Shown piece by piece: positions 1,527 to 58,849 of a DNA stretch of 64,000 bases (positions are counted from its first letter, which is position 1; each line of letters opens with the position of its first letter). The notes under the pieces are model-generated. The model had not been told where the DNA came from. It was given only the letters and a program-made list of their open reading frames with translations, and ran no database searches. A program made the position numbers and the translations under genes. The stretch comes from Leucoraja ocellata (taxonomy: Eukaryota): contig JAWMAR010000471.1 of the NCBI GenBank assembly GCA_036785375.1, positions 744,001 to 808,000 on the forward strand, written 5' to 3'.

Positions 1527-4249
1527 ATGGGTTGGAAGCGGCACTTGGAAGTTGAATATTATTATTATCCAATTCTGGCAACAATCGGAGTACCCGGTAG
1601 GTGAAGGGAAAGCAGTAAGTGGGACTGAGACGTGGGATGATGTGTTGATAAAAACATTGTTAAAGGTAAAGTGTAAATAGTGTGCGAAACACGGGGATGC
1701 TAGACTGCATTCTTCAGGTTAGGGCGGTATTAACTAGAAAATGTTTGTTTAAGAAATTACTGCAGTTGCTGGAGAAATCGAAGCTAGACAAAAATGCTGG
1801 AGAATTAGACAGCGGGTGAAGCGGCATCTATGAAGCGAAGGAATAGGTGACGTTTCGGGTCGAGACTGATCAGTCTGAAGAAGGGTCTCGACCCGAAACG
1901 TCACCTATTCCGTTGTTAAGCTATTGGATCGTTCGTCGTTCATAGGATCTGGCACAGGTTAATTCTCTTCAGATTCAGGTTTAGGTGCATTGTTGTCATG
2001 TATTTCCGGGAGCTGCAAAAAGCATTGGTTTGCAAGAAATCCAAATTAGATCAAATACTATTAAATATCAGTACAAACAATTCAATCTCAGTAACAGGTA
2101 GTGTAAGAGGGGAAATCGGAGTGCAGAGCGTAGTTCAAGTTTGGGAGCGCACTGCAGCGTATCACATCCACAAAGCCCAATGTCCGCAAGGGGATATAGG
2201 TGAAACGGCAATACCCTCGCATATGGAAGAGCGGCTCAGAAGCCTGACAACAGAGGGAAAGAATCGGTTCTGGAGTCTGATGGTGCGAGCTTTAAGCCCT
2301 CTGTATCTTCTGCCCGACGGGTGCAGGGAGTAGAAGGAATGAGCGGGGTGAGACGTGTCTCCGTTTCCAAGGGATTGTGAAGTGCAAACGCAGTCAACAG
2401 TGCGGAGTCTATTTCGTAATAAGGAGACGGCATCTTCCAGAACCCTGCGCAATTTACTCTTTATAGGACATATATGTCCCCACAACAAGCTGTGATACAC
2501 CCAACAGTATGCGTTCTATGCTAATCTGCACAGCAAGTTTGAGTAATCAGAGGCAGGTCAAAGTTCCTCAGTCTTCTCCGTAAAGGTGTTGGTCTGCCGC
2601 TGGCTGTCCTTTCGATGTGGTCGTCCAACAAACATCGTTGGTAGTATTAACTACGAGGAACTTGACGTCCTCAATCACTTCCACTTCAGCACCGTTGTTG
2701 CTGACCGGTGATCCACCGCATTTCCTGATATCGATAACTTGCTCCTTGGCCTCGTTGATACAGACATAGAGATTGTCATCATCTGGGAGCTTGTGGGAGC
2801 AGTCACAGCCGCATTTGGCCGCGGGGTCGTGAGTGCATGGGAGGAAGAACCCGGAACCGGATGAGACGTCTTTATGCGGCACCGTTGTAGAGAATTATTG
2901 TGGAAGGGGTGTTATAACTACTACTCTCTGATTAATGTACGTTCATTTGAACATTAGAAGCTGGTGTGCTGATCGCTAGGCTCGGGAGCTTATCAATGGG
3001 TTGGATGGGAGTAGTGTTGGGAATGGGAATGTGACTTTCGACTCCTTGCTGCCCGGCTGTTCCCAGGAAGGGTTTAGGTCCAGGACGATGGCGTCTGATA
3101 CGGACATGTTGCTGCAATATGCAGTCTGCGGTGCAACAATTGTGGCTGGGAGACAGCTCACGCTGCCTGCGTAGACCGCTGCTACGTAATCCGCACAGCT
3201 GCTTAGCACGCACCCATGTTTGTATGTGGGCCAGTTTTTTTAGAACAAATAAGCCAAGCGTACCCAAGTTTGACCCACGCTTCCAAATGAGCATCGTGTT
3301 TCCCTTACATGTAACGACAGTTTTCTCTTTTCCAGTGAACTTGTTGGCGATTGTGATCCTGTCCAGCAGAAATTGTGGTCTCGCCAAATGCACCACTCGG
3401 TACCTGGTGGCCATGGCGACTGTGGACCTCTCGGTGATCGTCTGCGAAGTGATATTACAACGGATTGCTGACCTTTACTGGGCGCACTCATTCCTCTTCC
3501 ACAATACTGTGTGCAGGTCCATTATGTTCCTCGCTCCCGCGGCCGTTGCCTGTTCTGTTTGGCTCACGGTCGCTTTCACATTTGATCGCTTTGTGGCCAT
3601 TTCCACTCAGAATCTGAGAACCAGATACTGCACCGAGAGAACCGCGCTGGTGGTTATAGTGACCCTAACTGCGTTCTTCTGTTTACTGAGCGTCCCCTGG
3701 CCGTTTGCGTACAATTATTATGTCAGGGATCAGCAGGGTATGCAGTGGGGCTGCCTAATAAGATATCACTTTTATAGCCTATCCTCGTGGATAGCATTTT
3801 CCTGGACTCAACAGCTGCTAGTCCCAGTCATTCCATTTTGCTTGATTATGCTAATGAACGTGCTCACTGTCAGACGCATTTTAGTGGCCAGTCGTGTCCG
3901 CAGGAAACTCCGCGATCTCAGTAGTGAGGACCCCGAAATCGCAAACCGCAGACGGTCCGTAATTTTACTCCTTGCAATCTCCAGCAGTTTTCTGCTGCTC
4001 TGGGGCACAACTGTGGTATATTTCGTTTTATATCGAATTACGAATGCATTTATGTCCAGGGGGTTGAAGAACCCATTTCCAACATTTGAACAAACTGGAA
4101 TTCTGCTACAACTGTTGAATACCTGCACAAACACGCTCATTTACACCGTGACCCAGAGGAGGTTCAGAGAACATCTGCTCCAGGTACTCATGTACCCCTT
4201 CACCCTAACTGTAAGCTTAATAAAATCGAGAACACCAGATGTACATTAA
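1527..4249 (+). CDS. Class A GPCR, GPR139/GPR142-like family, copy 1 (exons 1527-1596 and 3336-4249)
   Basis: Exon 1 is ATG..CCC G|gtaggt and reads MGWKRHLEVEYYYYPILATIGVP. The phase-1 acceptor ttttctcttttccag|TG continues VNLLAIVILS. The ORF has seven hydrophobic segments, FTFDRFVAI (DRY-like), a TM3 Cys/ECL2 Cys pair and NTLIY in TM7. AATAAA at 4681. Family call is from motif recognition. Confidence 0.9.
1840..1911 (+). ncRNA. Penelope-type inverted repeat with minimal hammerhead-ribozyme-like core (1875-1902) in GPCR1 intron
   Basis: CTGAAGA-A-GGGTC-TC-GACCC-GAAA-CGTC resembles CUGANGA/stem II/GAAA/GUC. It lies within a 27-bp perfect inverted repeat (1840-1866 vs 1885-1911). Activity not shown. 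Confidence 0.55.
1965..3200 (-). mobile_element. Decayed Rex1/Babar-like LINE fragments in GPCR1 intron (shared with introns of copies 2 and 3)
   Basis: Minus-strand RT and C-terminal remnants (HPAHSFY..PSGRRYR..RTIRLQNRFFP). Confidence 0.6.
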
Positions 4250-5934
4250 CATTACAATACTAATCCCTCCGTGAGTGAGTGAAACAATTAGGTAATGAAG
4301 GGTGTTCTCTGAAAAGTGTCCGCCTCAATTTTCAAAAAAATAGTTTAGAAATACAATGTGAACGCGTCCCCTGCACTGGAATGCACATCTCGCCATCTAT
4401 TTAACATGCGACACGGGCGCATTGTTCAAAGAGCCCAGTGGGAAGGGCGGCCATGTGGAACCGAGTGCTATGTTGTATTGGAACAGACCTCCAATGATTC
4501 AGGAATTGAGCCTCGCCGTTAACTGTTTCCACATTCCTTTGAATCCAGCGGTAACTTCTCCAACACGCAATGAAAACAGACATAGAGTTATGGTCCTAAA
4601 CATTGCATGCTCTATTACTCTACAATTATTTGAGACGTTCCATGTTTACGTATGTAAATGCCCAGTGCGCCAATGTGTTTAATAAAATTCTTGCTGCAAC
4701 AGTTATGTTAATGAGAGTTCCATTTTATATTTGTTTCTCGCACTGAATGTAATGCCTCGTTGCTTCTTACAGAGGCTTTCGGTTTTCAGTACAATTAGTA
4801 ACTCTGCACCAGATGCAGCCAAAGGTAGTGGGTGTTATTGATACAAGTTGGCATTACAAATTATATATTTAATGCAAACAGTGTGTAACAGCGAGTGTCC
4901 AGTAGAGGGCGGTAAAGTGAGTAAGTTCGCCTGTGTGGTAACGAGATGCTGAAAATCGATTTGCATTAATGTCCCACCTCCTTTGATGCAGCGCCGACGC
5001 TGGAGCTCTGCCTATTTGAGATTCGAGGGAGTGCTCAGAGAGTCGGGTTTATCTCCTCTTGCAGGGCAAGATAATGTGAGAAATCCATTAATTTATTTTC
5101 ACCACCGATGGCGGCTGAGATTTGTATAGCTCCAAATTTGACTTGAGTACTCTCTCCCCAAATTCTCCACTCCCGACGCGGTAACGATTACATTTTTACA
5201 TATTCTGATTGACGTTTATCCCCCCGAGGCCGTGAATACATACCTTCTGGCTCGGCTAGCAGTGATCAGCTTCGCTGAAGATGTCATCCTAATTTAACGT
5301 TATTCGCGATTAAAGCATTAAAAATGCCAACTTTCATAAGATTTTTACATATCCTGATCCACACGTATCCCCTCCAGCCAGAGAGCACATTCGCTGACCA
5401 TTTTATGCTTTATTTCTAGACATTACTGATTAAAGTTTTAATACAAATCAAAAGATTGAATTTAAAACTACTAGCTTCAACTGATGACGTCACGATGGCT
5501 CGGCTAGCAGTGATCAGCTTCACTTACGTTCGGGAACGGCTTGAGTTGGAGGACCACGCCTCCTGTGGTGGCCACGGGTAGGGAACGGGTGCGTTGGGGG
5601 AGCGACCCTTTCGACCCTCTCAAAACTTTACATACCTCAACCAGATCTTCCTGCAATTTCCGACATTCCAGAGGGAAATAATCCAAATATGACCAATCTC
5701 TCTCTGCACCGCTAATCCAGCCACCATTCCGGTAAATGAGCAACTGCGGCTCTAAAACACGCCGTACTTAGTAAATGTGTCCATCTTGCCGAATTGGCAA
5801 AGACATTCACTAATGGCTTTGCTGCTGGTCACCAATTTGTACAGCGTGCAAGTTAGTTTACGTTAGTTAGTTTACGACAGGTGTCGATAGGGTAGACTGT
5901 CAGAACTTTAAATGTCCCAACGGGCGGTTCTAAC

Positions 5935-6385
5935 CGGTATGGCTGGACTGACATATGTTGAAATAATGGAGCGACTGGGCTTGTATATACTGGAAATTAG
6001 AAGGATGAGAGGGCATTTTATTGAAACATATAATGTAATTGAGGGTTTGGACACGCTCGAGGCAGGAAACATGTTCCCGATGTTGGGGGAGTCCAGAACC
6101 AGGGCCACTGTTTAAGAATAAGGGGTAACCCATTTAGATGGAGATGCGGCAACAAATTTTCTCACAGAGAGTAATGAGCCTGTGGTATTCTCTGCCTCAG
6201 ACGGTGGTGGAGACCGGATCTCTGGGTAATGTCAAGAGCGAGCTAGATAGGGCTCTTAAAGATAGCGGAGTCAGGGGATATAAGGAGAGGGCAGGAACGG
6301 GGTAGTGATTGGGGATGATCACATTGAATGGCTGTGTTGGCTAGAAGGGCCGAATGGCCTACTCCTGCACCTATTGTCTATTGAA
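5935..6385 (+). mobile_element. CR1 LINE 3' fragment
   Basis: GMAGLTY..RLGLY.LE.RRMRG..IETY ORF2 C-terminus and CR1 3' UTR (gggccgaatggcctactcctgc). Confidence 0.8.
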
Positions 6386-6619
6386 AAGAAGCTAATCAGC
6401 TTATTTCCAACTGTGTCCTATCTGCAGGACCTTCTCTCTCCGCTTCCAGACCCATAAACTAATTTTTTGCACAAACACATGTGTTACTTTTTAAGCTAGT
6501 GGGCTCGACTGTGGCAAGTAAATTCACATGCACAACCCTCGGCAACGTGCAGGAATGTTTCGTGGAATACCTCCGCTAAATTCGCATAAAACTGCATGAT
6601 CTCCCCTTGCTAAATAGCC

Positions 6620-7080
6620 TACAACTTATTCTTAAACTGTGGTCCCTAGGTTTGGACTCTCTCAACACCGGTCACATGGTTCCTGCCTCCGACGTGTCCA
6701 ATCCTTCAATAATCTTTTATGTTTCAAAAATACCCCCTCTCATCCTACTAAATTCCAGTGTATACAAGCACAGCCGCTCCATTATATCCACATATGACAG
6801 TCCCGCCGTCCCGGGAATTAACCTGGTGAACCCACGGTGCACTCCCAACCCACGGTGCACTCCTTCAATAGCAAGAATGCCGTTCCTCAAATCTGGAGAT
6901 CAAAACTGCACACACTACTCCTGGTGTTGTCTCACTAGGGCCCTGTACATCTGCAGAAGGACCTCTTTGCTCCTATACTCAACTGCGCTTGTTATGAAGG
7001 CCAACGTGCAATTAGCTTTCTTCACTGCCTGCTGTACTTGCATGCTTACTTTCAGTGAGTGATGTACAATGACCCCAGGT
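6620..7080 (-). mobile_element. CR1 LINE ORF2 fragment
   Basis: Reverse complement of the CR1 [13 protein letters not shown] region. Confidence 0.75.
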
Positions 7081-7689
7081 GATACCCATCACCTTCTCAA
7101 GTGCAAATGTTTCCCTCCCGTTCCTGTTAAATATTTCCCCTCTCACCATTAACCTAATTCCTCTGGTTCCCGATTCTCCAACTCTGGGCAAAGGACACGA
7201 TACGAGATACATTTATTTGTCACATGTACCAGTTGCTACAGTGAAATGTGTGGTCAACATACAGCCATACAATAAAATAAAGAACAGTGATTCTCCAAAC
7301 ACCCCCTCACTGTGATGGATGTTTGTGTGGAATTGTGTTAATTTAGTGTATTTTTTTTATTGTTGGTATGACTGCAGGACCGTAATTTCGTTTGAGCCTG
7401 TGTTTCAATGACAATAAACGGCATGCTGATTCTGACTCTGATTCCGATGACTGCCTGGGTTTTCTCCGGGTGCTCCGGTTTCCTCCCAGACTCGAAATAC
7501 GTACAGACATATAGTTTATTTTTAATGTCTGTAAATTGTAACTATTCTCCTGTTTGTAGTAGGGTGCTGCTGTCTGGGGTGATCGTTGGTAAGCGCTGAT
7601 TGTGTGGGACGAAGGGCCTGTGTCCACAGCGGATCTCTGATTTCTTGAGCCTATTTTCCTTGGGTGCAGGAGGCGGAGTGTACGAGACA

Positions 7690-8315
7690 CCCCCTCACTG
7701 TGATGGAAGGCAAACGTATTTTCACTTCGCTGTTCTCGGTTCTTTATTCTTCTCCCACAGTCAAGCAGTCAAACTGCTGCATCGAGCTGATCGAGGCTTT
7801 TTATGTTAGAGCCCTCAGCGGTTGACGGTAAGTCCAACGTCCGTTGAAACCGCGCCGGGCGATATAAGGACCTGCTACGGGTCGATTTAATCCTCTCGAT
7901 TCGGTCGGGAGAAGTTACCGTTGCGGGAGCTCCAAAAAGAGGTCTCCTACCAGGGACCTGCGAGCTCCCGCTGTTACCGTCCACAGAGCCTGCAGACGGA
8001 GACGCCGAAGCTCCGAAGTCCTAGTCCGCAGGCTCCGCGACTCGAGACCCAGGTCGATTCCGGTTGGAGGCCGCCGGCTGCACAATGTTGGGCCCCAACG
8101 ACAACGGAGACTTGACAGGGAAAAGGTCGAATATTCGTACAGGGAAGAGATTTAACCCCCCCCCCCCCCCCCCTCCACGACGCCCCCCCCCCACACACAC
8201 ATATACACAGCTAAAAAGTATATAAAACGAAACCAAAACAAACACCTAACGAGACAAGAAGAAGGGAAAGACAGACGTACAGCAGAGGCCGCTGCCGCGA
8301 GGCGCCGCCATCTTG
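7690..8315 (-). mobile_element. GC-rich non-coding repeat starting AAGATGGCGGCG (paralogue at 13670-14620)
   Basis: Two inverted copies in the window. YY1-like 5' end, and in the right copy a GACAATAAA..(GATTCT)n tail like the Rex1-type LINE ends in this window. Confidence 0.5.
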
Positions 8316-8559
8316 TCCAATCGTCAGAACTTGCAACATCGATACTGACAACACGGTACTCAGGTTCTAACCCGGGTGTCCGACAGTGTAATGCCTCTGT
8401 CCCTCTTAGGAAACTTGAACGGAAAACTCTGGTGACCTTGCCCGCAACCCAAGGTTTCCATGAGGTTGCCAGATGTTTTGGTTAATCGCCTGGAAAGCCT
8501 CGAGCTCGATCGACCGAAGCGTGAGCTGCATCTACCGACCAAACATCATACACGACCCA

Positions 8560-8560
<1 letters not shown>

Positions 8561-8636
<76 letters not shown>
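8561..8636. repeat. (CA)n microsatellite
   Basis: About 38 perfect CA units. Confidence 0.99.
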
Positions 8637-8638
<2 letters not shown>

Positions 8639-9579
8639 GTTCACACTGCTACCCAGCTTTGTGTCATCTGCACATTTGCTAATGTTATTTGTGACCCCTT
8701 AGGTGGGAGGTAAAATTGTGTAATTTGTGTAAACAGTATTGAATGTATGTTTAGCCTCCGAGAATGTCGGATGGGGGTTTTGTTAGGATCATGTATTGTA
8801 CATATTTATTTCTCGAATAAACTATATATTTCGAAATCCAAAGAATTGACGCACTATGACTGTTCCCACAATTCACAATAATCCCAGTTGTGTTTCCCAT
8901 AGTCGAGTTCAGTGAAGGCGGAACTGTTTCCATGTAAAGACCCAGTCAAATGTTGCGATTTCACACTTTATGGCTGCTCCTCCCCAACTGCCCTGATATC
9001 CACCGCACTCCGCGAGCAGGTGAGCGAGAGTGCATTTCAATTATCGTCCAATCTCCAGTGGTTTGTTTCCATGATGGACAACACGTTGTATAGTTAGCAT
9101 ATTCGAAAATATTATTTATGGGCCAATGTTGGTATATATTTTCTTCGATTTTGGAGATATATTTTGAATGTGAATATCAATATTAATTTGAATCTGAGAC
9201 CCCTGGCTGCATGAACCAGTCGGGGTTATGGCAATGTTAGCCGTTGGTAGCAATAATGTTTATGTATTTTGCATAAGTATATTATTTTAAATGTTTGTGA
9301 GCTGCTGACTGTTCACGTGGTTGAGGCGACGCTGAAACTACACAGAGTGAACGATGCGCGGTCTAATAATGTTGCCGCTGGAGACAGAAAGATGCCGCCA
9401 TACTGCCTGACCACGAACCGAATTCAGGCAGCAACGGTCGGTGCGCAGAATGCAGATCACTAGGCCACTCGATACACTGCTGCAACTCATGGAAATTACA
9501 AACCTATTTTGCCGGCTAGCTGTGGTTAAATTTCAACAATCACCCAGCTGCACGCTTTTAAAAACAAATCACACGTTTT

Positions 9580-9870
9580 GTCGGCACAGTGGCGCAGCTG
9601 CTGCTGCCTCAAAGCTTCAGACACCCGGGATCAATCCTGTACTCGGGTAATGTCCGAGTGTAGTTTTCCCGTCTCGCTGTGACCGTGTAGGTATCGTCCA
9701 GGTGCTCTGATTTCCTCCCGTATCCCCAATACGTGTGTTTGTTTTAGCTTAATTGGCCTCTGTAAACATGCACCAAGTGTGTAAGGAATAGATGGAAAGG
9801 TGGAATAACACGGAACGAAAGTGATCGGGTCATCGATGGTCGGCGTGGACTCGGCGGGGTGAGGTCCTCA
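9580..9870 (+). mobile_element. tRNA-derived V-SINE (HE1-like), degenerate
   Basis: ggcacagtggcgcagc head and ccaggtgctctgatttcctccc V-domain-like motif. Related pieces at ~7450-7640, 14620-14790, 27160-27315 (-) and 27480-27770. Confidence 0.6.
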
Positions 9871-10004
9871 GGAATTAATTTCATATGCCAAAACATGGCA
9901 GATGTGGGGGAGTGGAACTGAACACATTCATTGAAAATGGCTCCTATCACATCATTCTGGCTTTGCTTGTAATTTACTTCACTTATTTACTTATTTTCCT
10001 CGGT

Positions 10005-10700
10005 ATTCATGAAATGCTTCGAGAGGCTGGTGAAGAAACACATCTGCGCCTTCCTCCCTCGCAACATAGACCTGTTACAGTTCGCATACCGTCCGAACAG
10101 ATCCACGGACGATGCGGTCTCCCAGGTTTTGCACACCGCTCTCTCCCATCTGGACAGCCAGAAGGGGGGCTACGTGAGGATGCTGTTCATAGACTGGCCG
10201 GGAAGCTAATAGAATTGGGGCTCAACACCCCACTGTGTGCCTGGGCCCTGTACTTTCTCACCGCCAGGCCCCAGGTAGTCAAGATGGGAGGAAATACATC
10301 GAAGTCCCTCACACTGAGCACAGGATCGCCCCAGGGTTGCGTCCTCAGCCCCCCATTGTACTCCCTGTACACACATGACTGTGTGGCTAGGTTCAGCTCC
10401 AACTCAATAATCAAGTTTGCTGATGACACTGTGGTAGTGGGCCGGATCTCAGACAACGATGAGAAGGCCGACCGAGAGGAGGTGGCTGATCTAGCACTCT
10501 GGGGTCAGGACAACAGCCTCCGATTGAACATCAAAAAACTAAGTAGCTGATCATGGACTTTAGGAGGGCACATCATCCGAGGACGTACACGCCATTGAGC
10601 ATAAATGGGGATACTGTGGATAGGGTGAACTCTTTTAAATATCTGGGAGTCCACATCTCTGAGGATATGACATGGACATCACACGCCGCAGCACTTTTCA
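10005..10700 (+). mobile_element. Rex1/Babar-like LINE RT fragment
   Basis: [37 protein letters not shown]; internal deletion. Confidence 0.85.
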
Positions 10701-10944
10701 TTTCACTGACATCTCGTACGTGTATGTGACGAATAAACTTGACTTGACTTGACTTGACTCGTATAGAAATCACGTGCATTTCTCAATGTATACATCGAAA
10801 CATCGTAATAATTCCCATTTTCTCCACACGGCCGAAGCGACTGCACATCTGCCCGTAGCCTTTGGACGGATGACGTTAATACTGTGGTGTTTCTTTTTAG
10901 AATCGTGGCATCATAGAGTCTTACTGCGTGGAAACACACCGTTA

Positions 10945-11475
10945 GAAACATATAAACATAAAAATAGGTGCAGAAGTAGGCTATTCGGCCCTTCGAGCCT
11001 GCACCGCCATTCAATATGATCATGGCTGATCATCCAACTCAGTATCCTGTACCTGCCACCTCTAACTCCCTCTTGAATATAGCCAATGAACTGGCCTCAA
11101 CTGCCTTCTGTGGCAGAGAATTCCAGAGATTCACCACTCTCTGTGTGAAAAATGTTTTCCTCATCTCGGTCCTAAAAGATTTCCCCCTTATCCTTAAACT
11201 GTAACCCCTTGTTCTGGACTTCCCCAACATCGGGAACAAGGTTCCTGCATCTAATCTGTCGAACCCCTTAAGAATTTTGTAAGTTTCAATAAGATCTCCC
11301 CTCAATCTTCTAAATTCTAGCGCGTACAAGTCGAGTCTATCCCGTCTTTCTTCATATCAAAGTCCTGACATCCCAGGAATCAGTCTGGTGAACCTTCTCT
11401 GTACAAGAATGTCTTTCTTCAGATTAGGAGACCACAACTGTACACAATACTCCAGGTGTGGTCTCACCAGGACAC
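10945..11475 (-). mobile_element. CR1 LINE 3' fragment
   Basis: LEFRRLRGDLIETYKIL..FFTQRVVNLWNSLP plus a ttctatgt-type tail. Confidence 0.85.
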
Positions 11476-12101
11476 TGTACACCCTTCGGCCCAAATTGCC
11501 CACACCAGCCAACATGTTCCATCTTCACTAGTCCTACCTGCATGCATTTCGTCCATATCCTCAACATCCGTTCTATCCATGTATATGTCAACGCTCTTCA
11601 TAAACCCTGCGATTATGCCTGCCTTAACTACTACCTCCGGCAGCTCGTTCCAAGCGCCGCCCCCTTTGTATGAAAAAGTTACCCTTCAGGTCTCTATTAA
11701 ATCTACTCCCCACTCACTTTGAATCTATGTTCTCTGTTTCTCGATCCACCTAATCTGGCCAAGAGACTCTGTGAGTTTACCCGATCTATTCCATTTGTGA
11801 ATATGCACCTATTATTATTTCGCTTAACAATCTCAGGCTTCGCACCTTCACCACCGGTTACAAGAACAAATATGCCTTCCTCAATCACGGTTTATTCAAG
11901 CGGATGCGAATACTCTCGGGGGGAAGCTGGATTCCGGCTACGTGTATTTTAATTGGCTAAGACCCCGCTGCCCACCCACATCTCTGACTCCATCACTGGG
12001 GGCACATGGCAGTGACAGCGAACATCCGGAGACCAGCAGACGCGATCCAGTTTTTGTCTCTTCAAGTTTCGAACTCAGCTAGTACATAGTGAACGGTCAA
12101 A

Positions 12102-12572
12102 ATGCGTTTCCTCGGCATCTGTGTCGTGTGGGGAGCGTTTCTGATAGGTAATTCTGGATCAATATTTTCAGTTCCCCTCGCCCTACTCAGTGAGATTTTG
12201 GCTTGAGAAGTGCAACTTTATAGCACTCAGGTATCTGTTACTATCTAAATATATTTATTTTACAGTCACCGTTCACGGAGAATCTGTCACACAGCCACTG
12301 CCCTCGGTGACGAAGACAAAAGGAGAAGCGGTGACTTTAACCTGCAACTATGATACCACATGGACAGCATATGCTTTATTCTGGTACCGACAATATCCAG
12401 GCATGCAGCCCGAGTTTACTGTGTCGAGAGACAACGGCAACAATGAAGATAAGGCCCAATACGCTGACACTCGTTTCTCTATTGAGCTCAATACCGCGAC
12501 TAAGTTCACCAGCTTGAGTATCTCAGGGCTGGATCTCAGCGACTCTGCAGTCTATTACTGCGCACTGTGGCG
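12102..12572 (+). CDS. T-cell receptor alpha/delta-type variable (V) gene segment (leader 12102-12147, V exon 12266-12572)
   Basis: Leader MRFLGICVVWGAFLI G|gtaatt, 118-nt intron ending tttacag. V exon VTVHG-ESVTQ..VTLTC..LFWYRQYPG..RFS..SLSISGLDLSDSAVYYCALW has the Ig V-set Cys/Trp/YYC hallmarks, no stops, and an RSS directly after it. Confidence 0.9.
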
Positions 12573-12610
12573 CACAGTGATGGAAACAAGTTAAGCCCCT
12601 TACAAAAACA
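12573..12610 (+). other. V(D)J recombination signal sequence (23-class, 22-bp spacer)
   Basis: Perfect heptamer CACAGTG at 12573-12579, 22-nt spacer, nonamer ACAAAAACA at 12602-12610 (8/9 match to ACAAAAACC). Confidence 0.9.
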
Positions 12611-14431
12611 TCGCTTTTGTCTTGCTCTCTGCTCCGCTCATGCGGTAGGATGTGCCTGCTTTCCTTTTCTTTCTCAGTTGTCGGTTTGCTTTCATTGTGT
12701 GCAGGTGTCCTGGTGGTTTTATTGTTTCCAACTGTGAGCTGCTTCTCCGGAATCCGTTTCCATAACATTAGCCGCGAGCTGCAGAGAATTACAAGAACTC
12801 TTATGACAGCGGGATATAACATGTGACCAGAGATCTGAAACGTGTGTTCTGTTTCATTCTCTCTCAGTCCTGGGTAACCTGGTTAATAACGGCAGAATTT
12901 TATGTTTTAATCAGACAAACTAGGTTGTCACTGGATGGAGGATTGGCTGGCCCGGAATTGTCACAATTACGTTAACCAATTCCACTTCACCAACACCCTG
13001 GCAGACTTTCTAATTTCAGGTGGTCATTGGCCTTCACTTATTGCAGAAAAATCGTCCGGGACGCGGGAAGAATAGGAAGTCAATAAACCAAACTATTTAC
13101 CGCAAATGGCGGATGCAGTAATGCAGATGGATAGTTCACCATTGGGCCTTGCTAAGTAATCCAGATCTTTGTCGCTGGATATATCACTAGACACCAGATG
13201 CATAGCTACAGTAACTGCTAAAATAAATACCCTGATGGATATGCCCGTGAGGTAAGTAAAATTAAACCCTTTGAATACGCCTGGCGCCTTTCCCAATGGG
13301 TGACTGCACAAATGTGCAAATACCTTAATGCAGTAATTACTGTTTTTGTTCCATGAGCCGGTACTGAATTACTTCTCTGCATCGCTATAGTCTGGGAATT
13401 CCTCCACAACAGCAACATGACAACACCTTCACTAGATCATAGCTCTACTATACTCCCTCGAGGGACTTCGCAAAAAGGATAGTTTGAGCAGTGTAGGAAT
13501 AAATTAGGCGGCATAGTGTCGTAGCTGGAGAGTTGCTCCCTTACACTGAAGACCCACCGGAAGGTAAACTAATTCCTAAGTGGGACAGGGGCATTACACT
13601 GTCAGAGTCTCGTTTAGATCCTGAGTACGGTGCTGACAGTAACAATTTAGTAAATTCTCCCGTTTGGACAAAATGGCGGCGCCTCGCGGCAGCGGCCCCT
13701 ACGGTCTGTCTGTCTTTTATTTCTTTTAGCCTTGTTAGGTGTATGTTTTGGTTTATTAGCTCTGTTTGTGTGTGTGGAGGGAGGACGTTTGCAGGGGGGG
13801 GGGGGGTGGGTGTGGGGCGGGGGAAGGGGGGCTTTTAAATCTCTTCCCTGTACGGGGACTCGAACTCGACCTTTTCCCTGTCGAGTCTCCGTTGTCGTTG
13901 GGGACTAACATCGTGCAGCCGGCGGGGTCCAATCGGAATCGCCCCGGGGCTCCAGTCGCACACCCTGCGGACTCACCATCGCGGAGCGGTCCGACGTCGG
14001 AGCGCGGAGCGCTGTGGCGACGCGCGGCTGCGACCCTGTGGGCGGTAACATCGGGAGCTCGCAGGTCCCTGGCGGGAGACCGTTTTTCGGAGCTTGCGCA
14101 ACGGCAACATCTCCCGCTCGAATCGAGGGGTTTAAATCGACCCGTAGCAGGACTCTCTATCGCCCGACGCGGCGCGGTCCTTACCATCGCCCCCCGGGGG
14201 CTCCAACATCAAAAGCCTCGATCAGCTCGATGCAGCAATTTGACTGCTAGACTGCGGAAGAAGAATAAAGGACAGAGAAGGGAAGACATAATGCTTTTGC
14301 CTCCCATCACAGTGAGGAGTTGTTTGGAGATTCACTGTGATGGATGTTTGTGTGCAATTGAGATAATTTTTTTTTTTTGTTGTTGTTATGACTGCAGGGA
14401 CGTAATTTCGTTTGAACCTATGTTTAAATGG

Positions 14432-14578
14432 CAGTCCAACCTCACGGTGTGCATGTGGTGAGCAGCAAACAATGATGCATGTCCTCAACAAAGACTCAAA
14501 GGAGGACTTGTCACCCTTCATACAGCAGATCAAGAGGCAACTGCTTGGCTAAAGGACTTTGCATTAGCTAAATAAATA
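14432..14578 (+). mobile_element. Short 5'-truncated LINE 3' end (Vingi/I-clade-like) inserted in a repeat
   Basis: CACGEQQTMMHV..GGLVTLHTA..ATAWL remnant, (TAAA)n tail and approximate TSD aatggca/aatgaca; absent from the paralogous 7400 region. Confidence 0.45.
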
Positions 14579-15304
14579 ATGACAATAAACCGCATTCTGA
14601 TTCCGATTCTGATTCTGATGACTGCCTGGGTTTTCTCCGGGTGCTCCGGATTCTTCTCAGACTCGAAATGCGTATTTTTTTAACATCTGCAAATTGTAAC
14701 TTGTTTCCAGCTTGTAGTGCAGTGCTACTGTATGGGGTGATCGTTGGGATGCGTAGATTATGTGGGACGAAGGGCCTGTGTCCACGGCGGACATTTGATA
14801 TCTTGAGCCTATATTCATTGGGCGGAGGAGGCTGAGTGTATGAAATCATTATCGATTGGACAACGTGAATTACACGTGAATCACAGTGGGAAACTTTGAT
14901 TCTGCTGTGTGGGAATGTTTTATGTTGGACTCTATCGTGTGTTGTGTTCTTTATTTAATTGTATGGTTATATGGTGACCACACATTTCACTGTACCAACT
15001 GGTACATGTGACAAATAAATGTATCTTGTATCTTGTACTTTACCCAGAGTTGGAGTATCAAGAACCAGAGGAATTAGGTTTTATGGCGAGAAGGGAAATA
15101 TTTAACTGGAACGGGAAGGAAACGTTTGCTCCTGAGAAGGCGATGTGTATCAATTGGGGTCCTTGTACATCACCCACTGAAAGTAAGTATGCAGATACAG
15201 CAGGCAGTGGAGAAAGATAATTGCACGTTGGCCTTCATAACAAGTGTAATTGAGTATATGAGCAAAATATGGTCATTCTGATTCAGATTCAGATTCTGAT
15301 TCAC

Positions 15305-16213
15305 TTACGACTGAACACCATCATCAAGTATGCAGATGATACAACGGTGATTGGCCTCATCAGCAACAATGACGAGTCGGCCTATAGGGAGGAGGTCCAG
15401 CTCCTAGCACCATGGTGCGCTGACAACAACCTGGGTATTTAACTCCAAGAAGACCAAGGAGCTCATTGTAGATTTCAGGAAGTCTAGGGGCGCCACGCGC
15501 ACCCCCATCCACATCAAGGTGGAACGTGTTTCCAGCTTCAGGTTCCTGGGGGTCAACATCTCCGATGACCTATCTTGGATCCACAATATCTCAACTCTGG
15601 TCAAGAGGGCTCACCAGCGTCTCTTCTTCCTGAGGAGACTGAAGAAGGTCCACCTGTCTCCTCAGATTCTGGTGAACTTCTACCGCTGCACCATCGAGAG
15701 CATCCTTACCAACTGTATCACAGTATGGTTTGTCAACTGCTCTGTGTCCGACCGGAAAGCACTGCAGAGGGTGGTGAAAATTGCCCAACGCATCACCGGT
15801 TCCACACTCCCGTCCCTTGAGTCTGTCCAAAGCAAACGTTGTCTGCGAAGGGCGCTCAGCATCACCAAGGACTGCTCTCACCGCAACCATGGACTGTTTA
15901 CCCACATACCATCCGGGATGCGCTACAGGTCTCTCCTTTGCCGGAAAAGCAGGTCCAGGAACAGCTTCTTCCCTGCGGCTGTCACACTACTCAACAATGT
16001 ACCTCGGTCACCCCCACCCCTTCCACCCGCCCGGACACTCCTCCCACAGGAAAAACACCACGACTGTATGCATGTAAATAGATTTATTTATTGGAATCGT
16101 ATTCTATGTTGCTCTTCCAGGGAGATGCTAACTGCATTTCGTTGTCTCTGTACTGTACACTGACAATGACAATTAAAGTTGAATCTGAATCTGAATTTGA
16201 ATCTGAATCTGAA
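15305..16213 (+). mobile_element. Rex1/Babar-like LINE 3' fragment
   Basis: IIKYADDT, FRFLGVNIS, QRLFFLRRL, FYRCTIESIL; (TGAATC)n tail. Confidence 0.85.
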
Positions 16214-16771
16214 TATGTGAATATAATGGAGCGGCTGGGCTTGTATACACTGGAATTTAGTAGGATGAGAGGAGATATTTTTGAAACATAATAGATTATT
16301 AAGGGATTGGACACGTTGGAGGCGAATTCAGCGGAGGTGTTCAACGAAACGATCCTGCACGTTGCCGAGGATTGTGCCTGTTAATTTACTTGCCACAGTC
16401 GAGCCCCCTAACTTAAAAATTAACACATGTGTTTGTGCAATAAATTAGTTTATGGGCCTGGAAGCAGAGAGAGAAGATACTGCAGACAGGACGGAGATGG
16501 AATATAGCTGATTAGCTTCCTTTGAATAGACAATATGTGCAGCAGTAGTCCATTCGGCCCTTCGAGCCAACACCGCCATTCATTGTGATCATGGCTGATC
16601 ATCCCCAATCAGTACCCCGTTCCTGCATTCTCCTCATATCCCCTGACTCCGATATTTTTAAGAACCCTCTCCAGCTCTCTCTTGACAGTATCCAGAGAAC
16701 CGACACCCTGAGGCAGAGAATACCACATACTCACCACACTGTGTGAATATTTGTTTCATCATCTACATCTA

Positions 16772-17552
16772 AATAGGACGTACAAGGTAAATGGTAGGGA
16801 ATTGAAGAATGCAGGTGAACAGAGGGATCAGGGAATAACTGTGCACAGTTTCCTAAAAGTGGAATTTCATATAGATAGGGTGGTAAAGAAAGATTTTGGT
16901 GTGCTGGCCTTTAGAAATCAGAGCATTAAGTATAGAAGTTGTGATGTAATGTTAAAATTGTACAAGGCATTGGTGAGGCCAATTCTGTAGTATGGTGTAC
17001 AATTTTGGCCGCCTAATTATAAGAAGGATGTCAACAAAATAGAGGGAGTACAGAGGAGATATAGAGGGAGTACTAGAATGTTGCCTGGGTTTCAGCAACT
17101 AAGTTACAGAGAAAGGTTGAACAAGTTAGGGCTTTATTCTTTGGAGCGCAGAAGGTTAAGGGGGGTCTTGATAGAGGTGTTTAAATGATGAGAGGGATAG
17201 AGAGAGTTGACGTGGATAAGCTTTTTCCACTGAGAGTAGGGAAGATTCAAACAAGGGGACATGACTTGAGAATTAAGGGACAGAAGTTTAGGGGTAACAT
17301 GAGGGGGGACTTCTTTACTCAGAGAGTGGTGGCAGTGTGGAATGAGTTTCCAGTGAAGGTGATGGAGGCAGGTTCGTTTTTATCATTTAAAAATAACTTG
17401 GATAGTTATATGGACGGGAAAGGAATGGAGGGTTATGGTCTGAACGCAGGTATATGGGACTAGGGCAGCATACGTGTTCGGCACGGACTAGACGGGTCGA
17501 GATGGCCTGTTTCCGTGCTGTAATTGTTATATGGTTATATGGTTATATGGTT
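16772..17552 (+). mobile_element. CR1 LINE 3' fragment with (ATATGGTT)n tail, inserted in an older minus-strand CR1 (16530-17755)
   Basis: ORF2 C-terminal motifs, octamer tail, flanking TAAAT duplication. Confidence 0.82.
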
Positions 17553-18847
17553 AAATGGCTTAACCCTTATTCTTAAACAGTGGCCCTGGTTCTGGGCTCC
17601 CCCAACATCGGGAACAATTTTCCTGCCTCTGGCGTGTCCAACCACTCAATAACATTATATGTTTCAATAAGATGCCCTCTCATCCTTCTAAACTCCAGTG
17701 TATACAAGCTCAGTCGCTCCATTCGTTCAACATATGTCAGTCCAGCCATCCCGGTTAGAACCGACCGTTGGGAAAATCAAAGTTCTGACAGTCTACCCTA
17801 TCCACGCATATCAAGAACTAATGTAAACTAAATAAAATAGCCCGCTGTACAAATTGGTGACCAGTAGCAAAGCCATTAGTGAATGTCTTTGCCAATTCGG
17901 CAAGATGGACACATTTAATAAGAACAGCGTGTTTTAGAGTCGCAGTTGCTCATTTACCGGAGTGGTGGCTGGATTAGCGGTACAGGGAGAGATTGGTCAT
18001 ATTTGGATTCTTTCCCTCTGGAATGTCGGAGATTGCAGGAAGATCTGTTTGAGGTGTGTAAAGTTATGAGAGGCTGCGATAGGGTCTGATCCCCCAACGC
18101 ACCCGTTCCCCACCCGTAGCCCCCACAGGAGGCGTGGTCCCCCAACTCAAGCCGTTCCCGAACGTCAGTGAAGCTGATCACTGCTAGCCGAGCCATTGTG
18201 ACGTCATCAGTTGAAGATAGTCGTTTTCAATTCAGGCTTTTGATTTTGTTTTAAACTTTAATCAGTAATGTCGAGAAATAAAGCATAACATGTTCAGCGA
18301 AGGTATTTTCGGCCTCGAGAGGGAAAATGTCAACCTGAATATGTAAAAATGTAATCATTACCGCGTCGGGAGCGGAGGATTTGGAAAGAGAGTACTCAAC
18401 TCAAATTTGGAGCTATACAAATCTCAGCCGCCATCGGTGAAGAAAATAAATTAATTAATTTCTCACATTTCCTTGCGCTGCAGGAGGAGATACATCCGAC
18501 TGTGAGCACTCACTCGAATCTCCAATAGGCAGAGCTCCAGCGTCAGCGCTGTATCAATGGAGGAGGGACATTAATGCAAATCGATTCAGCATCTCTTACC
18601 ACACAGGCGAACTTACTCACTTTACCGCCCCCTACTGGACACTAGCTTGTTACACACTGCTTGCATTAAAATATAATTAGTAATGCCAACTTGTATGAAT
18701 AACACCCACTCACTACCTTTGGCTGCATCTGGTACTGAATTACTAATTGTACTGAAAACCGAAAGGCTCTGTAAGAAGCAACGAGGCATTACATTCAGTG
18801 CGAACAACAAATATAAAATGGAACTATCATTAACGTAATGTAAAGTC

Positions 18848-19356
18848 GGACAGATCCTGACCAACTTTTACCGCTGTACCATCGAAAGCATCCTGACCAC
18901 CTGCTTCACGGTATGGTACAGCAGTTGCACCGTAGCGGACCGGAAGGCACTAGAACGGGTGGTTAAAACCGCTCAGTACATCATCGGTGCCCCGCTCCCT
19001 GCCATGGATGCCCTGCACGGAAAACGGTGTCTGAGACGGGCCGGGAAGTTCATCAAAGACCCCTCCCACCCTAACCATGGACTGTTTGCCCACCTCCCAT
19101 GAGGGAGGCGGTACAGGAGCCTCGGGCTCGTAGTAGTAGGATGAGGAACAGCTTCTACAACAACACTATCACATTGCTGAACTCCAAGTCCCGCCGATAG
19201 ATTTCTCCAGTCTCTCCGTCGACATTGTTTGCTTATTCTGTATTTATATTTCTATGTTGCACTATTACTACGGTCTGACGCTAAACTGCATTTCGTTGTA
19301 CCCGTACTTGTATCTGTGCAATGACAGTAAAGTTGAATTGAACTGAATTGAATTGA
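18848..19356 (+). mobile_element. Rex1/Babar-like LINE 3' fragment
   Basis: NFYRCTIESILT..DPSHP; (AATTG)n tail. Confidence 0.8.
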
Positions 19357-20061
19357 AATGTTGCAGGAAGAATTGTACTTACTCACCTTACAGCCCACTA
19401 ATGCACACTAGCTTGTGACACTCTGCTTCCATTAAAAAAATATAGTTAGTAATGACAACTTGTTTGAACGGCTCCCACTACCTTTGGCTGCATCTGGTGC
19501 AGAATTACTAATTGTACTGAAAGCCGAAGGCCTCTGTAAGAAGCAATGAGGCATTACATTCAGTGCGAGAAACAAATATAAAATAGAACTCTCACTAACG
19601 TAAATGTTGCTACAAGAATTTTATTAAACACATTGGTGCACCGGGCATTTACATACGTAACCATGGAACGGCTCAAAGAATTGTAGAGGAATGGAGCATG
19701 CAATGTTTAGGACCATAACTCTATGTCTGTTTTCATTGCGTGCTGGAGACGTTGCACTGGATTCAAAGGAGGGTGGAGACAGTTAACGGCGAGGCTCAAT
19801 TCCGGAATCATTGGAGGTCTGCTCCAATACAACATAACACTCGTTCCACGTGGCCGCCCTTCCCATTGGGCACTTTGAACAACGCGCCCGTGTTGCATGT
19901 TAAATAGATGGCCAAATGTACATTCCAGTGCATGGGGACGCGTTCAGAATGTATTTCTCAGCTATGTTTTTGAAAATTGATGCGGAAAGCTTTGAGACAA
20001 AACTCCTTCATTACCTAGTTTCTGCACTGACTCACGGTGGGATTAGTAATGTAATGTTACT

Positions 20062-22416
20062 TTACACCCGGTTTCTCGATTTTATTAAACTTACAGTTAG
20101 GGTGAAGGGGTACATGAGTACCTGGAACAGCTGCTCTCTGAACCTCCTCTGGGTCACGGTGTAAATGAGCGTGTTTGTGCAGGTGTTCAACAGTTGTAGC
20201 AGAATTCCAGTTTGTTCAAATGTTGCAAATCGGTTCATCAACCCCCTGAACATAAATGCATTCGTAATTCGATAGAAAACGAAATATACTACAGTTGTGC
20301 CCCAGAGCAGCATAAAACTGCTGGAGATTGCAAGGAGTAAAATTACGGACCGTCTACGGTTTGCGATCTCGGGGTCCTCACCACTGAGATCGCGGAGTTT
20401 TCTGCGGACACGACTGGCCACTAAAATGCGTCTGACTGTGAGCACGTTCATCATCATAATCAAACAAAATGGAATGACTGGGACTACCAGCTGTTGAGTC
20501 CAGGAAAATGCTATCCACGAGGATAGGCTATAAAACTGATATCGTATTTGGCAACCCCACTGTATACCATGCTGATCCCTGAGATAATAAATGTACGCAA
20601 AAGGCCAGGGGACGTTCTGTAAACAGAAGAACGCAGTTAGGGTCACTATAACCACCAGCGCGGTTCTCTCGGTGCAGTATCTGGTTCTCAGATTCTGAGT
20701 GGAAATGGCCACAAAGCGATCAAATGTGAAAGCGACCGTGAGCCAAACAGAACAGGCAACGGCCGCGGGAGCGAGGAACATAATGGACCTGCACACAGTA
20801 TTGTGTAAGAGGAATGAGTGCCCCCAGTAAAGGTCGGCAATCCGATGTAATATCACTTCGCAGACGATCACCGTGAGGTCCACAGTCGCCATGGCCACCA
20901 GGTACCGAGTGGTGCATTTGGAGAGACCACAATTTCTGCGCGACAGGATCACAATCGCCAGCAAGTTCACTGGGGGTGTAGAAAAGAGGAAACTCGTTAC
21001 ATGTAATGGACACGCGATGCAAATTTGAAGGCGGGGGTCAAACTTGGGTTACGCTTTGCTTATTTGTTCGAAAACAACTGCCCACATGCAAACCTGTGTG
21101 CGTGCTAAGGAGCTGTGCGGATTAATTAGCAGCGGTCTACGCAGGTAGCGTGAGCTGTCTCCCAGCCACCCGTGATGCACCGCAGACTGCATATTGCAGC
21201 AACATTTCCGCATCAGACGCCGTCGTCCTGGACCTAAACCCTTCCCGGGAACAGCCGGGCAACAAGGAGTCGAAAGTCGGATTCCCAATCTCCGCTGGAG
21301 AACTTGCCTTCAACACTACTCCCATCCAAACCCATTGATAAACCCCAGAGCCCAGCGATCAGTGCACCAGCTTGCGAATGGATACTCAACTTCCTAAAGA
21401 ATGAACCGATAGAATTAGTGGTAACACACAATAATTCTCAACAACGGTGCCGCACAAAGCTTGTTGTGGGGCCATCTATGCCCCATAAAGAATAAATTGC
21501 ACAGGGTTCTGGAAGACGCCGGGTCCATATCACGAAATGGACTCCGCACTGTTGACTGCGTTCGCACTTCACAATCCCTTGGAAACGGAGACATGTTTCA
21601 CCCCGCTCATTCCTTCTACTTCCTGCTCTCGTCGGGCAGAAAATGGAGAAGGCTTAAAGCTCGCTCCACCAGACTGCAGAACAGCTCTTTCCCCTCTGTT
21701 CTCAGGCTTCTGAGCCGCTCTTCCATATGCCAGGGCATTGCCGTTTCACCTATATCCCCTTGCGGACATTGGGCTTTGTGGATGTGATACGCTGCAGTGC
21801 GCTCCCAAACTTGAACTACGCTCTGCAATCCGATTTCCCCTTTTACATTCCCTGTTACTGAGATTGAATTGTTTGTACTGTTATTCAATATTATTTGACC
21901 TAATTTTGATGTCTTGCAAACCATAGCTTTTTGCAGCTCCCGGAGAGACATGACAACAATGCACCTAAACCTGAAGAGAATTAACCTGCGCCAGATCCAA
22001 TGAACGACCAACGATCAATTAGCTTAACAAAGGAATAGGTGACGTTTCGGGTCGAGACCCTTCTTCAGACTGATCAGTCTCGACCCGAAACGTCACCTAT
22101 TCTTTCGCTTCCTAGATGCCGCTTAACCCGCTGTCTAATTCTCCAGCATTTTGTCTAGATTCGATTATCTCCAGCAACTGCAGTAATTTCTTAAACAAAC
22201 ATTTTCTAGTTAATACAGCCCTAACCTGAAGAATGCAGTCTAGCATTCCCGTGTTTCGCACACTATTTACACTTTACCTTTGACATTGTCTTTATCAACA
22301 CATCATACCACATCTCATTCCCACTTACAGCGTTCCCTTGACCTACCGGGTACTCCGATTGCTGCCAGAATTGGATAATAATAATATTCAACTTCCAAAT
22401 GCCGCTTCCAACCCAT
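20062..22416 (-). CDS. GPR139-like GPCR, copy 2 (exons 22416-22347 and 20969-20062)
   Basis: Same 70-nt exon 1 (MGWKRHLEVEYYYYPILAAIGVP) with GT donor, CAG acceptor at 20972-20970 and an uninterrupted 7TM exon-2 ORF. Confidence 0.9.
22032..22102 (-). ncRNA. Same hammerhead-like inverted repeat in GPCR2 intron (core 22068-22041)
   Basis: Identical core on the minus (gene-sense) strand. Confidence 0.55.
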
Positions 22417-24479
22417 TTTTCCTTCAAGCCGTCCGCAGTTATGCAGTGCAAAACTTATAGGAGTTAAAGTGAGAAGTCAAACAGCGCTATATTTATATTC
22501 TTAGAAACACTTAAGGATTTCGTGCGTTCACCTCCCCGCGGACATTTATTGTGGACCGTTGAACAAATAGTTTGCTCCCATGTGATGCAAAGCGATCAAA
22601 CTCATTATGCGACCGCTCACTACTCAGGCACCAGCTGAGCACCAACAGAACTAAGGAACTGTAAAATACGAGTGAACAGTCTATTTTTAACTTTTAACGC
22701 GTGGCACACAGATGCAGCAAAATTCGTGTCATGTATCATTTATGCACACAAGCTACGATGTAATACAGTATATTACTTGTCGAATTTGCAATGCATTTTC
22801 CAGACACCGTTCCCATCATTTAATATGCACCCATTAATAATTTCATCTTGCATTATCCGTGTAGCTGCCTTTCAAACGGAAAGATAATCATTTTTGGCAG
22901 GGTCTAAATGATGTAAACCACAGGGAACCTTCTAGACGACATCGTATACAATTCAGCTACAACAGCAGCATTAATGTATTTCAACTGTTGCCACTTCATG
23001 AAGTAAAGAATAAGCGAATATAATGTGTAATGTGACAACTGACTGGAAATATACAACGGCTAGAAATATTTTTGATCAACAGATTATCTTTAAAGACATG
23101 TGTTAATTCATAAAACACAGAGGTGAACAGCATTTGATGTTATTCCAGATATTAGGGAGAAATCTTCTCAATTCAATGATCCGTTGGAGATATCAAGAAT
23201 GTTGATGTACAAGATGATTGAATCGGTTAAGGAGAATCTCACCGGCTGTAAATGTTTGGGGATAGATCATCCTGAAGAAAGTCTTGACCAAAGAAAGAAG
23301 TGTCATGTTTGCTGCACTCGACCTAAGCAATTCACAGACAAAACCTTCACAGAGCAGTACACCACAGGAGGAGGGATATTATTTTTCGAAATAATTTATT
23401 AAGGATCCATTTAAACTAGGGATTATGCAACTCTCCTCACACGAATGGTACTAATATTGGACAGTGTGAATTATGAGATGGACTGCAGAATGCAGAAACT
23501 GTATCTCTCAGCAGCGAATAAAACTATGAGGAGTTATGCAGAATTAAATTATGACAAGGTGATCAGTTGAAATATTTTAATGTGTTCCTCGGATGTAGGT
23601 CTCTAAAAGAGGACAGGAGTATAAAATAAGACGGTAAATATTTAAAGGGACGCAGCGCATACTCTCCCTCACGGGGGGGGGGGGGGGGGGGGGGTGGGCA
23701 GGTATATTGAACCAACTCTCACTGTAAGTGGTAGTTGCATGTTACACAGCACAGCAACAGGGCCTTTTCTCCATCTTGTTCATGAACAATTTGCTTCCAA
23801 CCAATGCGAGTCAATTTGAATGTGGATGGTAGGATTTTTCCTCCTCAGCCAGCTGGATGTGTGGGCTTATTTCACTGCTGTAATCGCACGCAGTTGGGTG
23901 TAAGTGGAGTTTAACAATTTGGTCTGGGACGTTGGCGAGACCGCACGTGCGATGTTCTCCAGATCGCAATATGTTCGCATTGATACAATTAATCTGCGGA
24001 GTGGCAGCGTATTAACGGCAACGTTTGTGCAGGACTGGAGACGTTCAATTCCGAGAGAGACTGTATAGGTCAGGATATTTCAATTCTCTGAAACGAACGA
24101 TGTGGTGAATTGACATTTCACGTTGTGGACGTTACCACGAGAGACAATATAATCAAGACAGACGTCGATATGCCGAATGTTCTTCCAAATTAGCAGAAAG
24201 ATAGATTTAGTAACGTTGAAGACTCGGATGTTAACTCCAGAAACGTGTGCCTTGCACAAGCGGAAAGTGACTTGTTGTTCTTCGATCTTGGCATAGAGTT
24301 CTAGTGTCATACATCGTGAAAAATAGTCCTCCGGCACAACCTGCCCACGATGACCAATGTCCCCCATCTGCACACCACACCTGTCTACGAGTGGCCCATA
24401 TTCCTCTGAACATATCTTATCCATGTACTTGTCGCATTATTTCTTAAACGTTGCGACAGTACCTGCCTCAACTACATCC

Positions 24480-56081: not shown

Positions 56082-56083
56082 GT

Positions 56084-58836: not shown

Positions 58837-58849
58837 CTGGGAACGAAGA

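What the first reader, a model, noticed from the sequence alone, without database searches (positions are those of the whole stretch)
12102..12610. Lone, apparently functional TCR alpha/delta V segment inside a GPR139-like receptor cluster
Seen: a complete leader-intron-V-RSS unit, the only one I found in 64 kb, in the unique ~5 kb spacer between two inverted GPCR-bearing arms. No D, J or C segment is visible. Established: mammalian TRA/TRD loci are flanked by and interspersed with olfactory receptor genes. Inference: this is either the edge of a chondrichthyan TCR alpha/delta locus interleaved with a different expanded 7TM family (a convergent arrangement), or an orphon V that kept a perfect RSS. 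If D/J segments lie downstream in the same orientation, rearrangement would somatically delete GPCR copies 2-5 in T cells.
Basis: partly seen in the sequence, partly recalled or inferred. Interest (0 to 1): 0.75.

Follow-up and report, generated by a model that had tools for sequence, protein, structure and literature searches.

The report
Skate TCR V among orphan receptors
An intact T-cell-receptor variable gene segment, with its cut-and-join signal, sits between copies of an expanded orphan cell-surface receptor family in what is most likely a skate; it is likely one ordinary member of a widely scattered T-cell-receptor array whose chromosome these receptors appear to share in other skates and rays, and no functional link between the two is shown.

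Summary
The unit is real: leader exon, 118-bp GT-AG intron, open V exon, exact heptamer, 22-bp spacer, 8/9 nonamer; no other V, D, J or C signature in 64 kb. It belongs with conventional leadered elasmobranch TCR alpha/delta V segments (up to 62% identical), not NAR-TCR. The host is likely a skate. 'Lone' is likely an effect of window size: in published shark and ray tables 16 of 26 and 12 of 18 listed V segments would look as lone, and about half face away from C, so rearrangement could invert rather than delete. What is of interest is the neighbourhood: the five receptors fall in one batoid clade, whose sawfish and thorny-skate members share a chromosome with V segments of this clan, 4 to 29 accession numbers away. 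Against: the closest thorny-skate receptors lie on another chromosome. Position of D/J/C and expression are untested. The scan noted this V/receptor interleaving before, 125 kb away on this piece and in three other genomes; my paper searches did not find it.

The parts
12102..12147 (+). TCR V leader exon (15 codons + 1 base)
   Evidence: resembles leaders of P0246, P0311, P0318
12148..12265 (+). Leader intron, 118 bp, GT..AG, phase 1
12266..12572 (+). V exon, open, TCR alpha/delta type
12573..12610 (+). RSS: exact heptamer, 22-bp spacer, nonamer 8 of 9
   Evidence: same spacer length (no gap) in contigs of four runs
8413..13572 (.). Spacer between inverted arms; holds (CA)38, LINE fragments and the V
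2..8412 (+). Left arm of inverted duplication, carries receptor copy 1
13573..24084 (-). Right arm of inverted duplication, carries receptor copy 2
1527..4249 (+). Orphan class A receptor copy 1 (exons 1527-1596, 3336-4249), intact
20062..22416 (-). Receptor copy 2 (exons 22416-22347, 20969-20062), intact
35568..37943 (-). Receptor copy 3 (exons 37943-37874, 36481-35568), intact
57760..58836 (-). Receptor copy 4, frameshift near 58680-58650, no first exon found: likely pseudogene
61833..63520 (-). Receptor copy 5 (exons 63520-63454, 62743-61833), intact, a separate sub-branch
4899..4911 (+). CTCF-consensus match in left arm (faces its twin across the V)
18626..18638 (-). CTCF-consensus match in right arm, duplicate of the former

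Best explanation
[quoted passage not shown] In thymocytes RAG would cut at the 12572/12573 border and join the V to a distant 12-bp-spacer D-delta or J-alpha segment (established 12/23 rule; use of this V not shown). If D/J/C lie to the right on the + strand, copies 2-5 would leave on the excision circle of that allele; if they lie to the left on the - strand, the V and copy 1 would be inverted and nothing lost. The inverted duplication copied the receptor on either side and left the V single between the arms.
For: Shown: intact anatomy and RSS. Nearest proteins are elasmobranch V models at 48-62% with the same type of leader; one relative at 52% is part of a full V-J-C TCR chain model of a sawshark (P0349). 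Tree of 40 V domains puts it beside this clan (87/2, weak) and outside the Cys-bearing NAR-TCR supporting V clade (99/98). 22-bp spacers predominate in cod TRA/D V genes (PMC13149839). Published elasmobranch V rows are scattered on both strands over 1.9 Mb (26 rows) and 5.1 Mb (18 rows); 16 of 26 and 12 of 18 would look lone in a window placed like ours. Receptors: all five fall in a 15-row batoid clade (SH-aLRT 99); its Pristis member XP_051882913 shares a 57,793,762-bp record with V-clan model XP_051882909, and two Amblyraja members XP_032890424 and _447 share a 59,888,763-bp record with V-clan model XP_032890418. A Pristis IgW cited in PMC12227049 is 246 accession numbers from the receptor. 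The V 3' end with RSS is held at about 97-98% identity, without gaps, in contigs of four runs. Unverified lead: earlier scan notes place TCR V segments 71 kb before and 125 kb beyond the window.
Against: No D, J or C was located, and no rearranged transcript was seen. The closest Amblyraja receptors (XP_032874706/7; 80% and 77% to copy 5) lie on a 131,315,132-bp record, not the V record: of 6 chromosome-placed clade members from other batoids 3 are on a known V record, 2 are not, 1 (Hypanus) could not be assigned. In Heterodontus the V models lie on a 59,489,666-bp record while its nearest listed receptor lies on a 19,484,767-bp record. Accession adjacency gives no distance: consecutive gene ids in the stingray table are up to 1.2 Mb apart. 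The published tables list NCBI models only and may miss V segments, which would inflate the gaps. Read-through of two relatives implies a 23-bp spacer in this clan (inferred from protein), one base more than here. No listed contig bridges the V to a receptor arm.
Confidence: 0.74

Rival explanations
1. The V, perhaps with a whole block of V and receptor genes, has been moved off the antigen-receptor chromosome and is an orphon that cannot rearrange in cis, still intact because the move is recent or because it is used in trans.
For: Closest Amblyraja relatives of copy 5 lie on a different chromosome-size record than the V models. No D/J/C in the window. The catshark table has V rows 28 Mb from the PSMB5/IgW end and the C genes on an unplaced scaffold.
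Against: Frame, splice sites and RSS are intact and the RSS end is kept in four runs of at least two labelled organisms; sparse V arrays are normal; three clade members share records with V models in two other batoids.
Confidence: 0.16
2. The linkage is functional: the receptors are opened with the V array in thymocytes and expressed in T cells, so V choice sets, by deletion or inversion, which receptor copies a clone keeps on that allele.
For: One receptor clade, not the whole family, appears tied to V-bearing records in three batoids; four of five copies are intact and copies 1-3 have pN/pS 0.45-0.76.
Against: No expression evidence of any kind. Many near-identical copies and the second allele would buffer loss. 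Mammalian olfactory genes sit among TRAV genes with no such role known to me (recalled). The V was not copied with receptors 1-3 in this window.
Confidence: 0.06
3. The V-between-arms layout is an assembly artefact (collapsed or mis-joined repeats).
For: Repeat-rich region, inverted arms, two N runs elsewhere in the window; no listed contig bridges V and arm.
Against: Arms differ by 5-24% and carry different insertions, so they are not two reads of one copy; no N between 1 and 42024; V and receptor clade share records in two other species.
Confidence: 0.04

Closest known systems
Conventional TCR alpha/delta V segments of the elasmobranch antigen-receptor complex (PMC12227049 section 6 and Table S1; nurse shark alpha/delta V sharing, PMC5931798)
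   Same: Split leader, V exon, 3' RSS with long spacer; V rows scattered far apart on both strands and between other genes; nearest relatives are such models.
   Different: The paper's text and tables name no 7TM genes among the V segments (0 hits; the table lists only Ig, TCR and marker genes); D/J/C linkage of this V is not shown here.
Olfactory receptor genes among mammalian TRAV genes (human OR10G2, OR4E2; mouse Olfr1507-1509; sheep; PMC4574546)
   Same: Members of an expanded class A 7TM family lie between V segments and would be deleted in passing.
   Different: Here a two-exon family with only distant likeness to human GPR139 (E 1.6e-5, no better than CCK-B receptor); five copies in 64 kb rather than 2-3 at the distal tip; V segments likely on both strands.
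NAR-TCR (NAR V plus supporting V-delta) and TAILV
   Same: Same chromosome region in sharks and rays; RSS-flanked V exons.
   Different: Own leader, no extra CDR1 cysteine, no adjacent D or NAR V, TCR-type rather than IgH-type sequence.
GPR139/GPR142 orphan receptors
   Same: Automatic label of nearly all 120 listed homologues; full-length weak match to human GPR139.
   Different: Weak similarity; large chondrichthyan expansion; orthology to GPR139 not tested.

Membership tests
Conventional TRAV/TRDV segment | Split leader with GT-AG intron and open V exon with Cys-Trp-Cys framework | tested here: met
Conventional TRAV/TRDV segment | 3' RSS with heptamer, 22/23-bp spacer, nonamer | tested here: met
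   22 bp usual in cod TRA/D V
Conventional TRAV/TRDV segment | Sequence nearest to TCR alpha/delta V | tested here: met
   best single-domain PDB matches human TRDV1/TRA; 52% to V of a shark V-J-C TCR model; tree support for the exact clan weak, 87/2, and no TRB, TRG or IgH V rows were in the tree
Conventional TRAV/TRDV segment | Lies in cis with TRD D-J-C and TRA J-C | not testable with these tools
   no genome held; none in window
Conventional TRAV/TRDV segment | Found rearranged in T-cell transcripts | not testable with these tools
   no usable RNA run was available
NAR-TCR supporting V-delta | Extra cysteine in CDR1, directly behind a NAR V-D-J unit, no own leader (features recalled; Cys and order seen in P0301, P0322, P0166) | tested here: not met
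   own leader, no CDR1 Cys, outside the 99/98 clade
NAR-TCR V / IgH minicluster V / TAILV | IgNAR- or IgH-like V sequence, D segments close behind | tested here: not met
   TCR-type best matches; 0 D-like RSS pairs; no named TAILV sequence was on hand for a direct comparison
Orphon V | Located outside the main locus, on another chromosome or without D/J/C in cis | tested here: inconclusive
   mixed record-sharing in relatives; neighbours on the same piece only from unverified notes
GPR139 orthologue (the receptors) | Clear best match to human GPR139 | tested here: inconclusive
   E 1.6e-5, third behind two CCK-B receptor entries, though the longest aligned stretch
Olfactory receptor (the receptors) | Olfactory receptor family profile; single coding exon (recalled) | tested here: not met
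   Pfam gives 7tm_1 only; two coding exons

The most novel reading that the evidence does not exclude
One clade of chondrichthyan orphan GPCRs has been held inside the TCR alpha/delta V array since the batoid ancestor or earlier because it is regulated with the array, so that V(D)J recombination edits each T-cell clone's receptor complement: a second, non-immunoglobulin receptor family diversified somatically by RAG.
Probability: 0.06. Interest if true: 0.85.

Novelty: new variant of a known kind. Interest (0 to 1): 0.35.

Why it matters
The V itself is ordinary. The neighbourhood is a second case of an expanded 7TM family living among TCR alpha/delta V segments, in a lineage far from mammals and with a family unrelated to olfactory receptors, so the arrangement likely arose twice. 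It gives a marker for finding and ordering the scattered skate V array, and a testable question: whether long-range RAG joining across receptor-filled, inverted duplications deletes or flips passenger genes, and whether T cells express them.

Tried and rejected
Genome-wide search for D/J/C: no genome held. Sequencing runs: no RNA holder listed, no evidence either way. Contigs laid on 2000-21900 were swamped by repeats and too short to bridge V and arms; only 32 of over 563,000 pieces were listed, and depth is no copy number; letter-by-letter conservation of the V across species therefore remains unread. Thirteen receptor models fetched, including the long ones, held no V domain by eye: tandem receptor fusions only. 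Searches for longer V relatives gave mostly multi-V gene-model artefacts. ESM Atlas gave only generic V-set clusters. RSS-side CTCF motif, a lead from earlier notes: none within about 1 kb of this V at up to 2 mismatches. Promoter motifs: no octamer, CRE or TATA match in 400 bp upstream, uninformative. The CTCF pair in the arms: exact matches 2 against 0.10 expected but they are one duplicated site, the count is not above chance at 1 mismatch (2 against 2.39), and the third copy has decayed: kept as a note only. Papers: no paper with GPR139 + T cell receptor + elasmobranch; searches listed none describing the interleaving; PMC7039070 (Deiss 2019, nurse shark locus) is not held; PMC4289303 had no spacer passage; PMC11372145 main text has no GPR mention, its supplementary data were not opened. 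No structure or complex prediction was run: it would not change the verdict.

Full report
Observation. The unit is present as described. The leader exon runs 12102-12147, a 118-bp GT-AG intron follows, and the V exon 12266-12572 is open in frame with it. The exon has both framework cysteines and the WYRQ motif and scores as Pfam V-set, E 8e-15. Directly behind lie CACAGTG, 22 bases, and ACAAAAACA; this is the only such match in the window and 0 of 100 shuffles gave one. Two other RSS-like sites with 3 mismatches are at chance level (about 1.7 expected). tblastn with 40 V proteins and their profile found no second V; there is no D-like RSS pair and no convincing J or C1 motif. The V lies in a 5,160-bp spacer (8413-13572) between inverted arms that are 76-95% identical by block. 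Five receptor genes were modelled: four intact two-exon genes and one frameshifted copy for which no first exon was found.

What the V is. The best single-domain matches among solved structures are human TRDV1/TRA chains. The nearest proteins are cartilaginous-fish V models: Heterodontus 62% and 60%, Pristiophorus 59%, Chiloscyllium 55%, Callorhinchus 54%, Pristis 52%, Amblyraja 48%, with leaders of the same type. One relative at 52% is the V of a full V-J-C TCR chain model, named alpha-like by its source though its best PDB matches are delta chains. In a tree of 40 V domains the V joins this clan with weak support (87/2) and lies outside the well supported clade of Cys-bearing NAR-TCR supporting V domains (99/98) (the tree held no beta, gamma or IgH V rows, and its regular expression missed NAR V domains). 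The 22-bp spacer is no defect: it predominates in cod TRA/D V genes (PMC13149839, passage seen), and contigs from four public runs cover the RSS at about 97-98% identity without a gap (four runs, three studies; the best holder may be close to the source). Read-through of two relatives implies 23 bp in the clan (my inference).

Host and receptors. Copy 1 is 87% identical to a Leucoraja protein; 1,314 homologues passed E 0.001, and the named ones among the 120 listed are chondrichthyan, mostly labelled 'probable GPR139'. The host is therefore likely a skate. The label is loose: human GPR139 matches at only E 1.6e-5, behind two CCK-B receptor entries. In a tree of 59 rows (5 window copies and 54 of the 120 listed homologues) all five copies fall in a 15-row batoid clade (SH-aLRT 99) within a 42-row elasmobranch clade (99). 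Copies 1-3 are 90-92% identical with pN/pS 0.45-0.76; copies 4 and 5 are older branches.

Is it lone? Table S1 of PMC12227049 (read whole) lists TCR-type V models scattered over megabases on both strands. For the epaulette shark 26 rows span 1.9 Mb (median gap 33 kb), for the stingray 18 rows upstream of C span 5.1 Mb (median gap 112 kb); 16 of 26 and 12 of 18 would have no listed neighbour in a window placed like ours, and 15 of 26 and 8 of 18 lie on the strand opposite to C. I included NAR-TCR and Ig-TCR V rows, left out IgW-linked V rows on the far side of C, and did not count the great white and catshark sheets; the tables hold NCBI models only and may be incomplete. The paper's section 6 says alpha/delta-type V exons lie between IgH clusters (section 15 also read). 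Earlier notes of this scan place TCR V segments 71 kb before and 125 kb beyond this window on the same piece; I could not check them because no genome is held. Two runs hold a second version of the V's 3' flank with 33-39 differences in 275-412 bases, a hint that this neighbourhood has a paralogue elsewhere.

Is the neighbourhood shared? In Pristis a V-clan model (XP_051882909) and a receptor of the batoid clade (XP_051882913) share a 57,793,762-bp record; in Amblyraja a V-clan model (XP_032890418) and two clade members (XP_032890424, _447) share a 59,888,763-bp record. Close accession numbers give no distance, as consecutive gene ids in the stingray table are up to 1.2 Mb apart. Against a simple picture: the Amblyraja proteins closest to copy 5 (80%, 77%) lie on a 131,315,132-bp record, the Hypanus member could not be tied to a V record, and in Heterodontus four V models lie on a 59,489,666-bp record while the nearest listed receptor lies on a 19,484,767-bp one. 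Scan notes report the same interleaving in three other genomes (unchecked, not counted as support).

Mechanism. By the established 12/23 rule this V would be joined in thymocytes to a D-delta or J-alpha segment; nurse shark V families serve both chains (5 of 7 delta families, PMC5931798, passage seen). If D/J/C lie to the right on the + strand, copies 2-5 would be excised on that allele; if to the left on the - strand, the V and copy 1 would be inverted. Any more distal same-strand V would delete all five. None of this is shown for this V. The inverted duplication copied receptor and flanks but not the V, which speaks for neighbours rather than a fixed V-receptor cassette. I give 0.74 to an ordinary array member with passenger receptors, 0.16 to an orphon or displaced block, 0.06 to functional coupling and 0.04 to misassembly.

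Comparison and novelty. Olfactory genes among TRAV genes are known in human, mouse and sheep (PMC4574546, passages seen). The skate case has the same logic with an unrelated, two-exon family. Searches of the held library (listings only) and of PMC12227049 with its two supplements found no description of it; subscription papers, notably Deiss 2019, were not available and could mention it. PMC6795676 was seen in passages. The V is a new member of a known kind; the arrangement is a new variant of a known kind. Interest 0.35: worth mapping, but without expression or locus data it is a neighbourhood, not a mechanism.

Noticed in passing
window 53176-57307 (-): Three long overlapping open frames (407 aa no Pfam match, 644 aa reverse transcriptase, 336 aa tyrosine recombinase): a DIRS-type retrotransposon that looks intact; a second, broken gag-like piece at about 47600-49000 (+).
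   Followed up: partly
window 166-1170 against about 23776-22780: About 1 kb upstream of receptor exon 1 is 98% identical between the inverted arms while most of the rest is 80-96%; around exon 1 copies 2 and 3 or 1 and 3 are closest instead: patchy identity suggesting gene conversion among copies.
   Followed up: partly
window 4899-4911 (+) and 18626-18638 (-): Exact CTCF-consensus matches that the inverted duplication turned into a convergent pair about 13.7 kb apart, enclosing the V; decayed in the third copy. One independent site, binding untested.
   Followed up: partly
window 12611-12700: This V lacks the RSS-side CTCF-like motif that earlier notes report for another V family on this piece; a pyrimidine tract with two AG sites follows the nonamer.
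   Followed up: partly
window 57760-60001: Receptor copy 4 is frameshifted and a LINE fragment begins about 10 bases upstream of its exon-2 acceptor; no exon 1 found.
   Followed up: yes
P0301 (Cetorhinus), P0322 (Heterodontus): Genome-derived models in which a NAR-TCR-like V runs straight into a J-like motif ahead of a supporting V, suggesting germline-joined NAR-TCR units, as also labelled 'gj' in the great white table.
   Followed up: no
PMC12227049 Table S1, great white sheet: Runs of 7-18 gene ids are missing between listed V rows; these unlisted models could be the receptor family.
   Followed up: no
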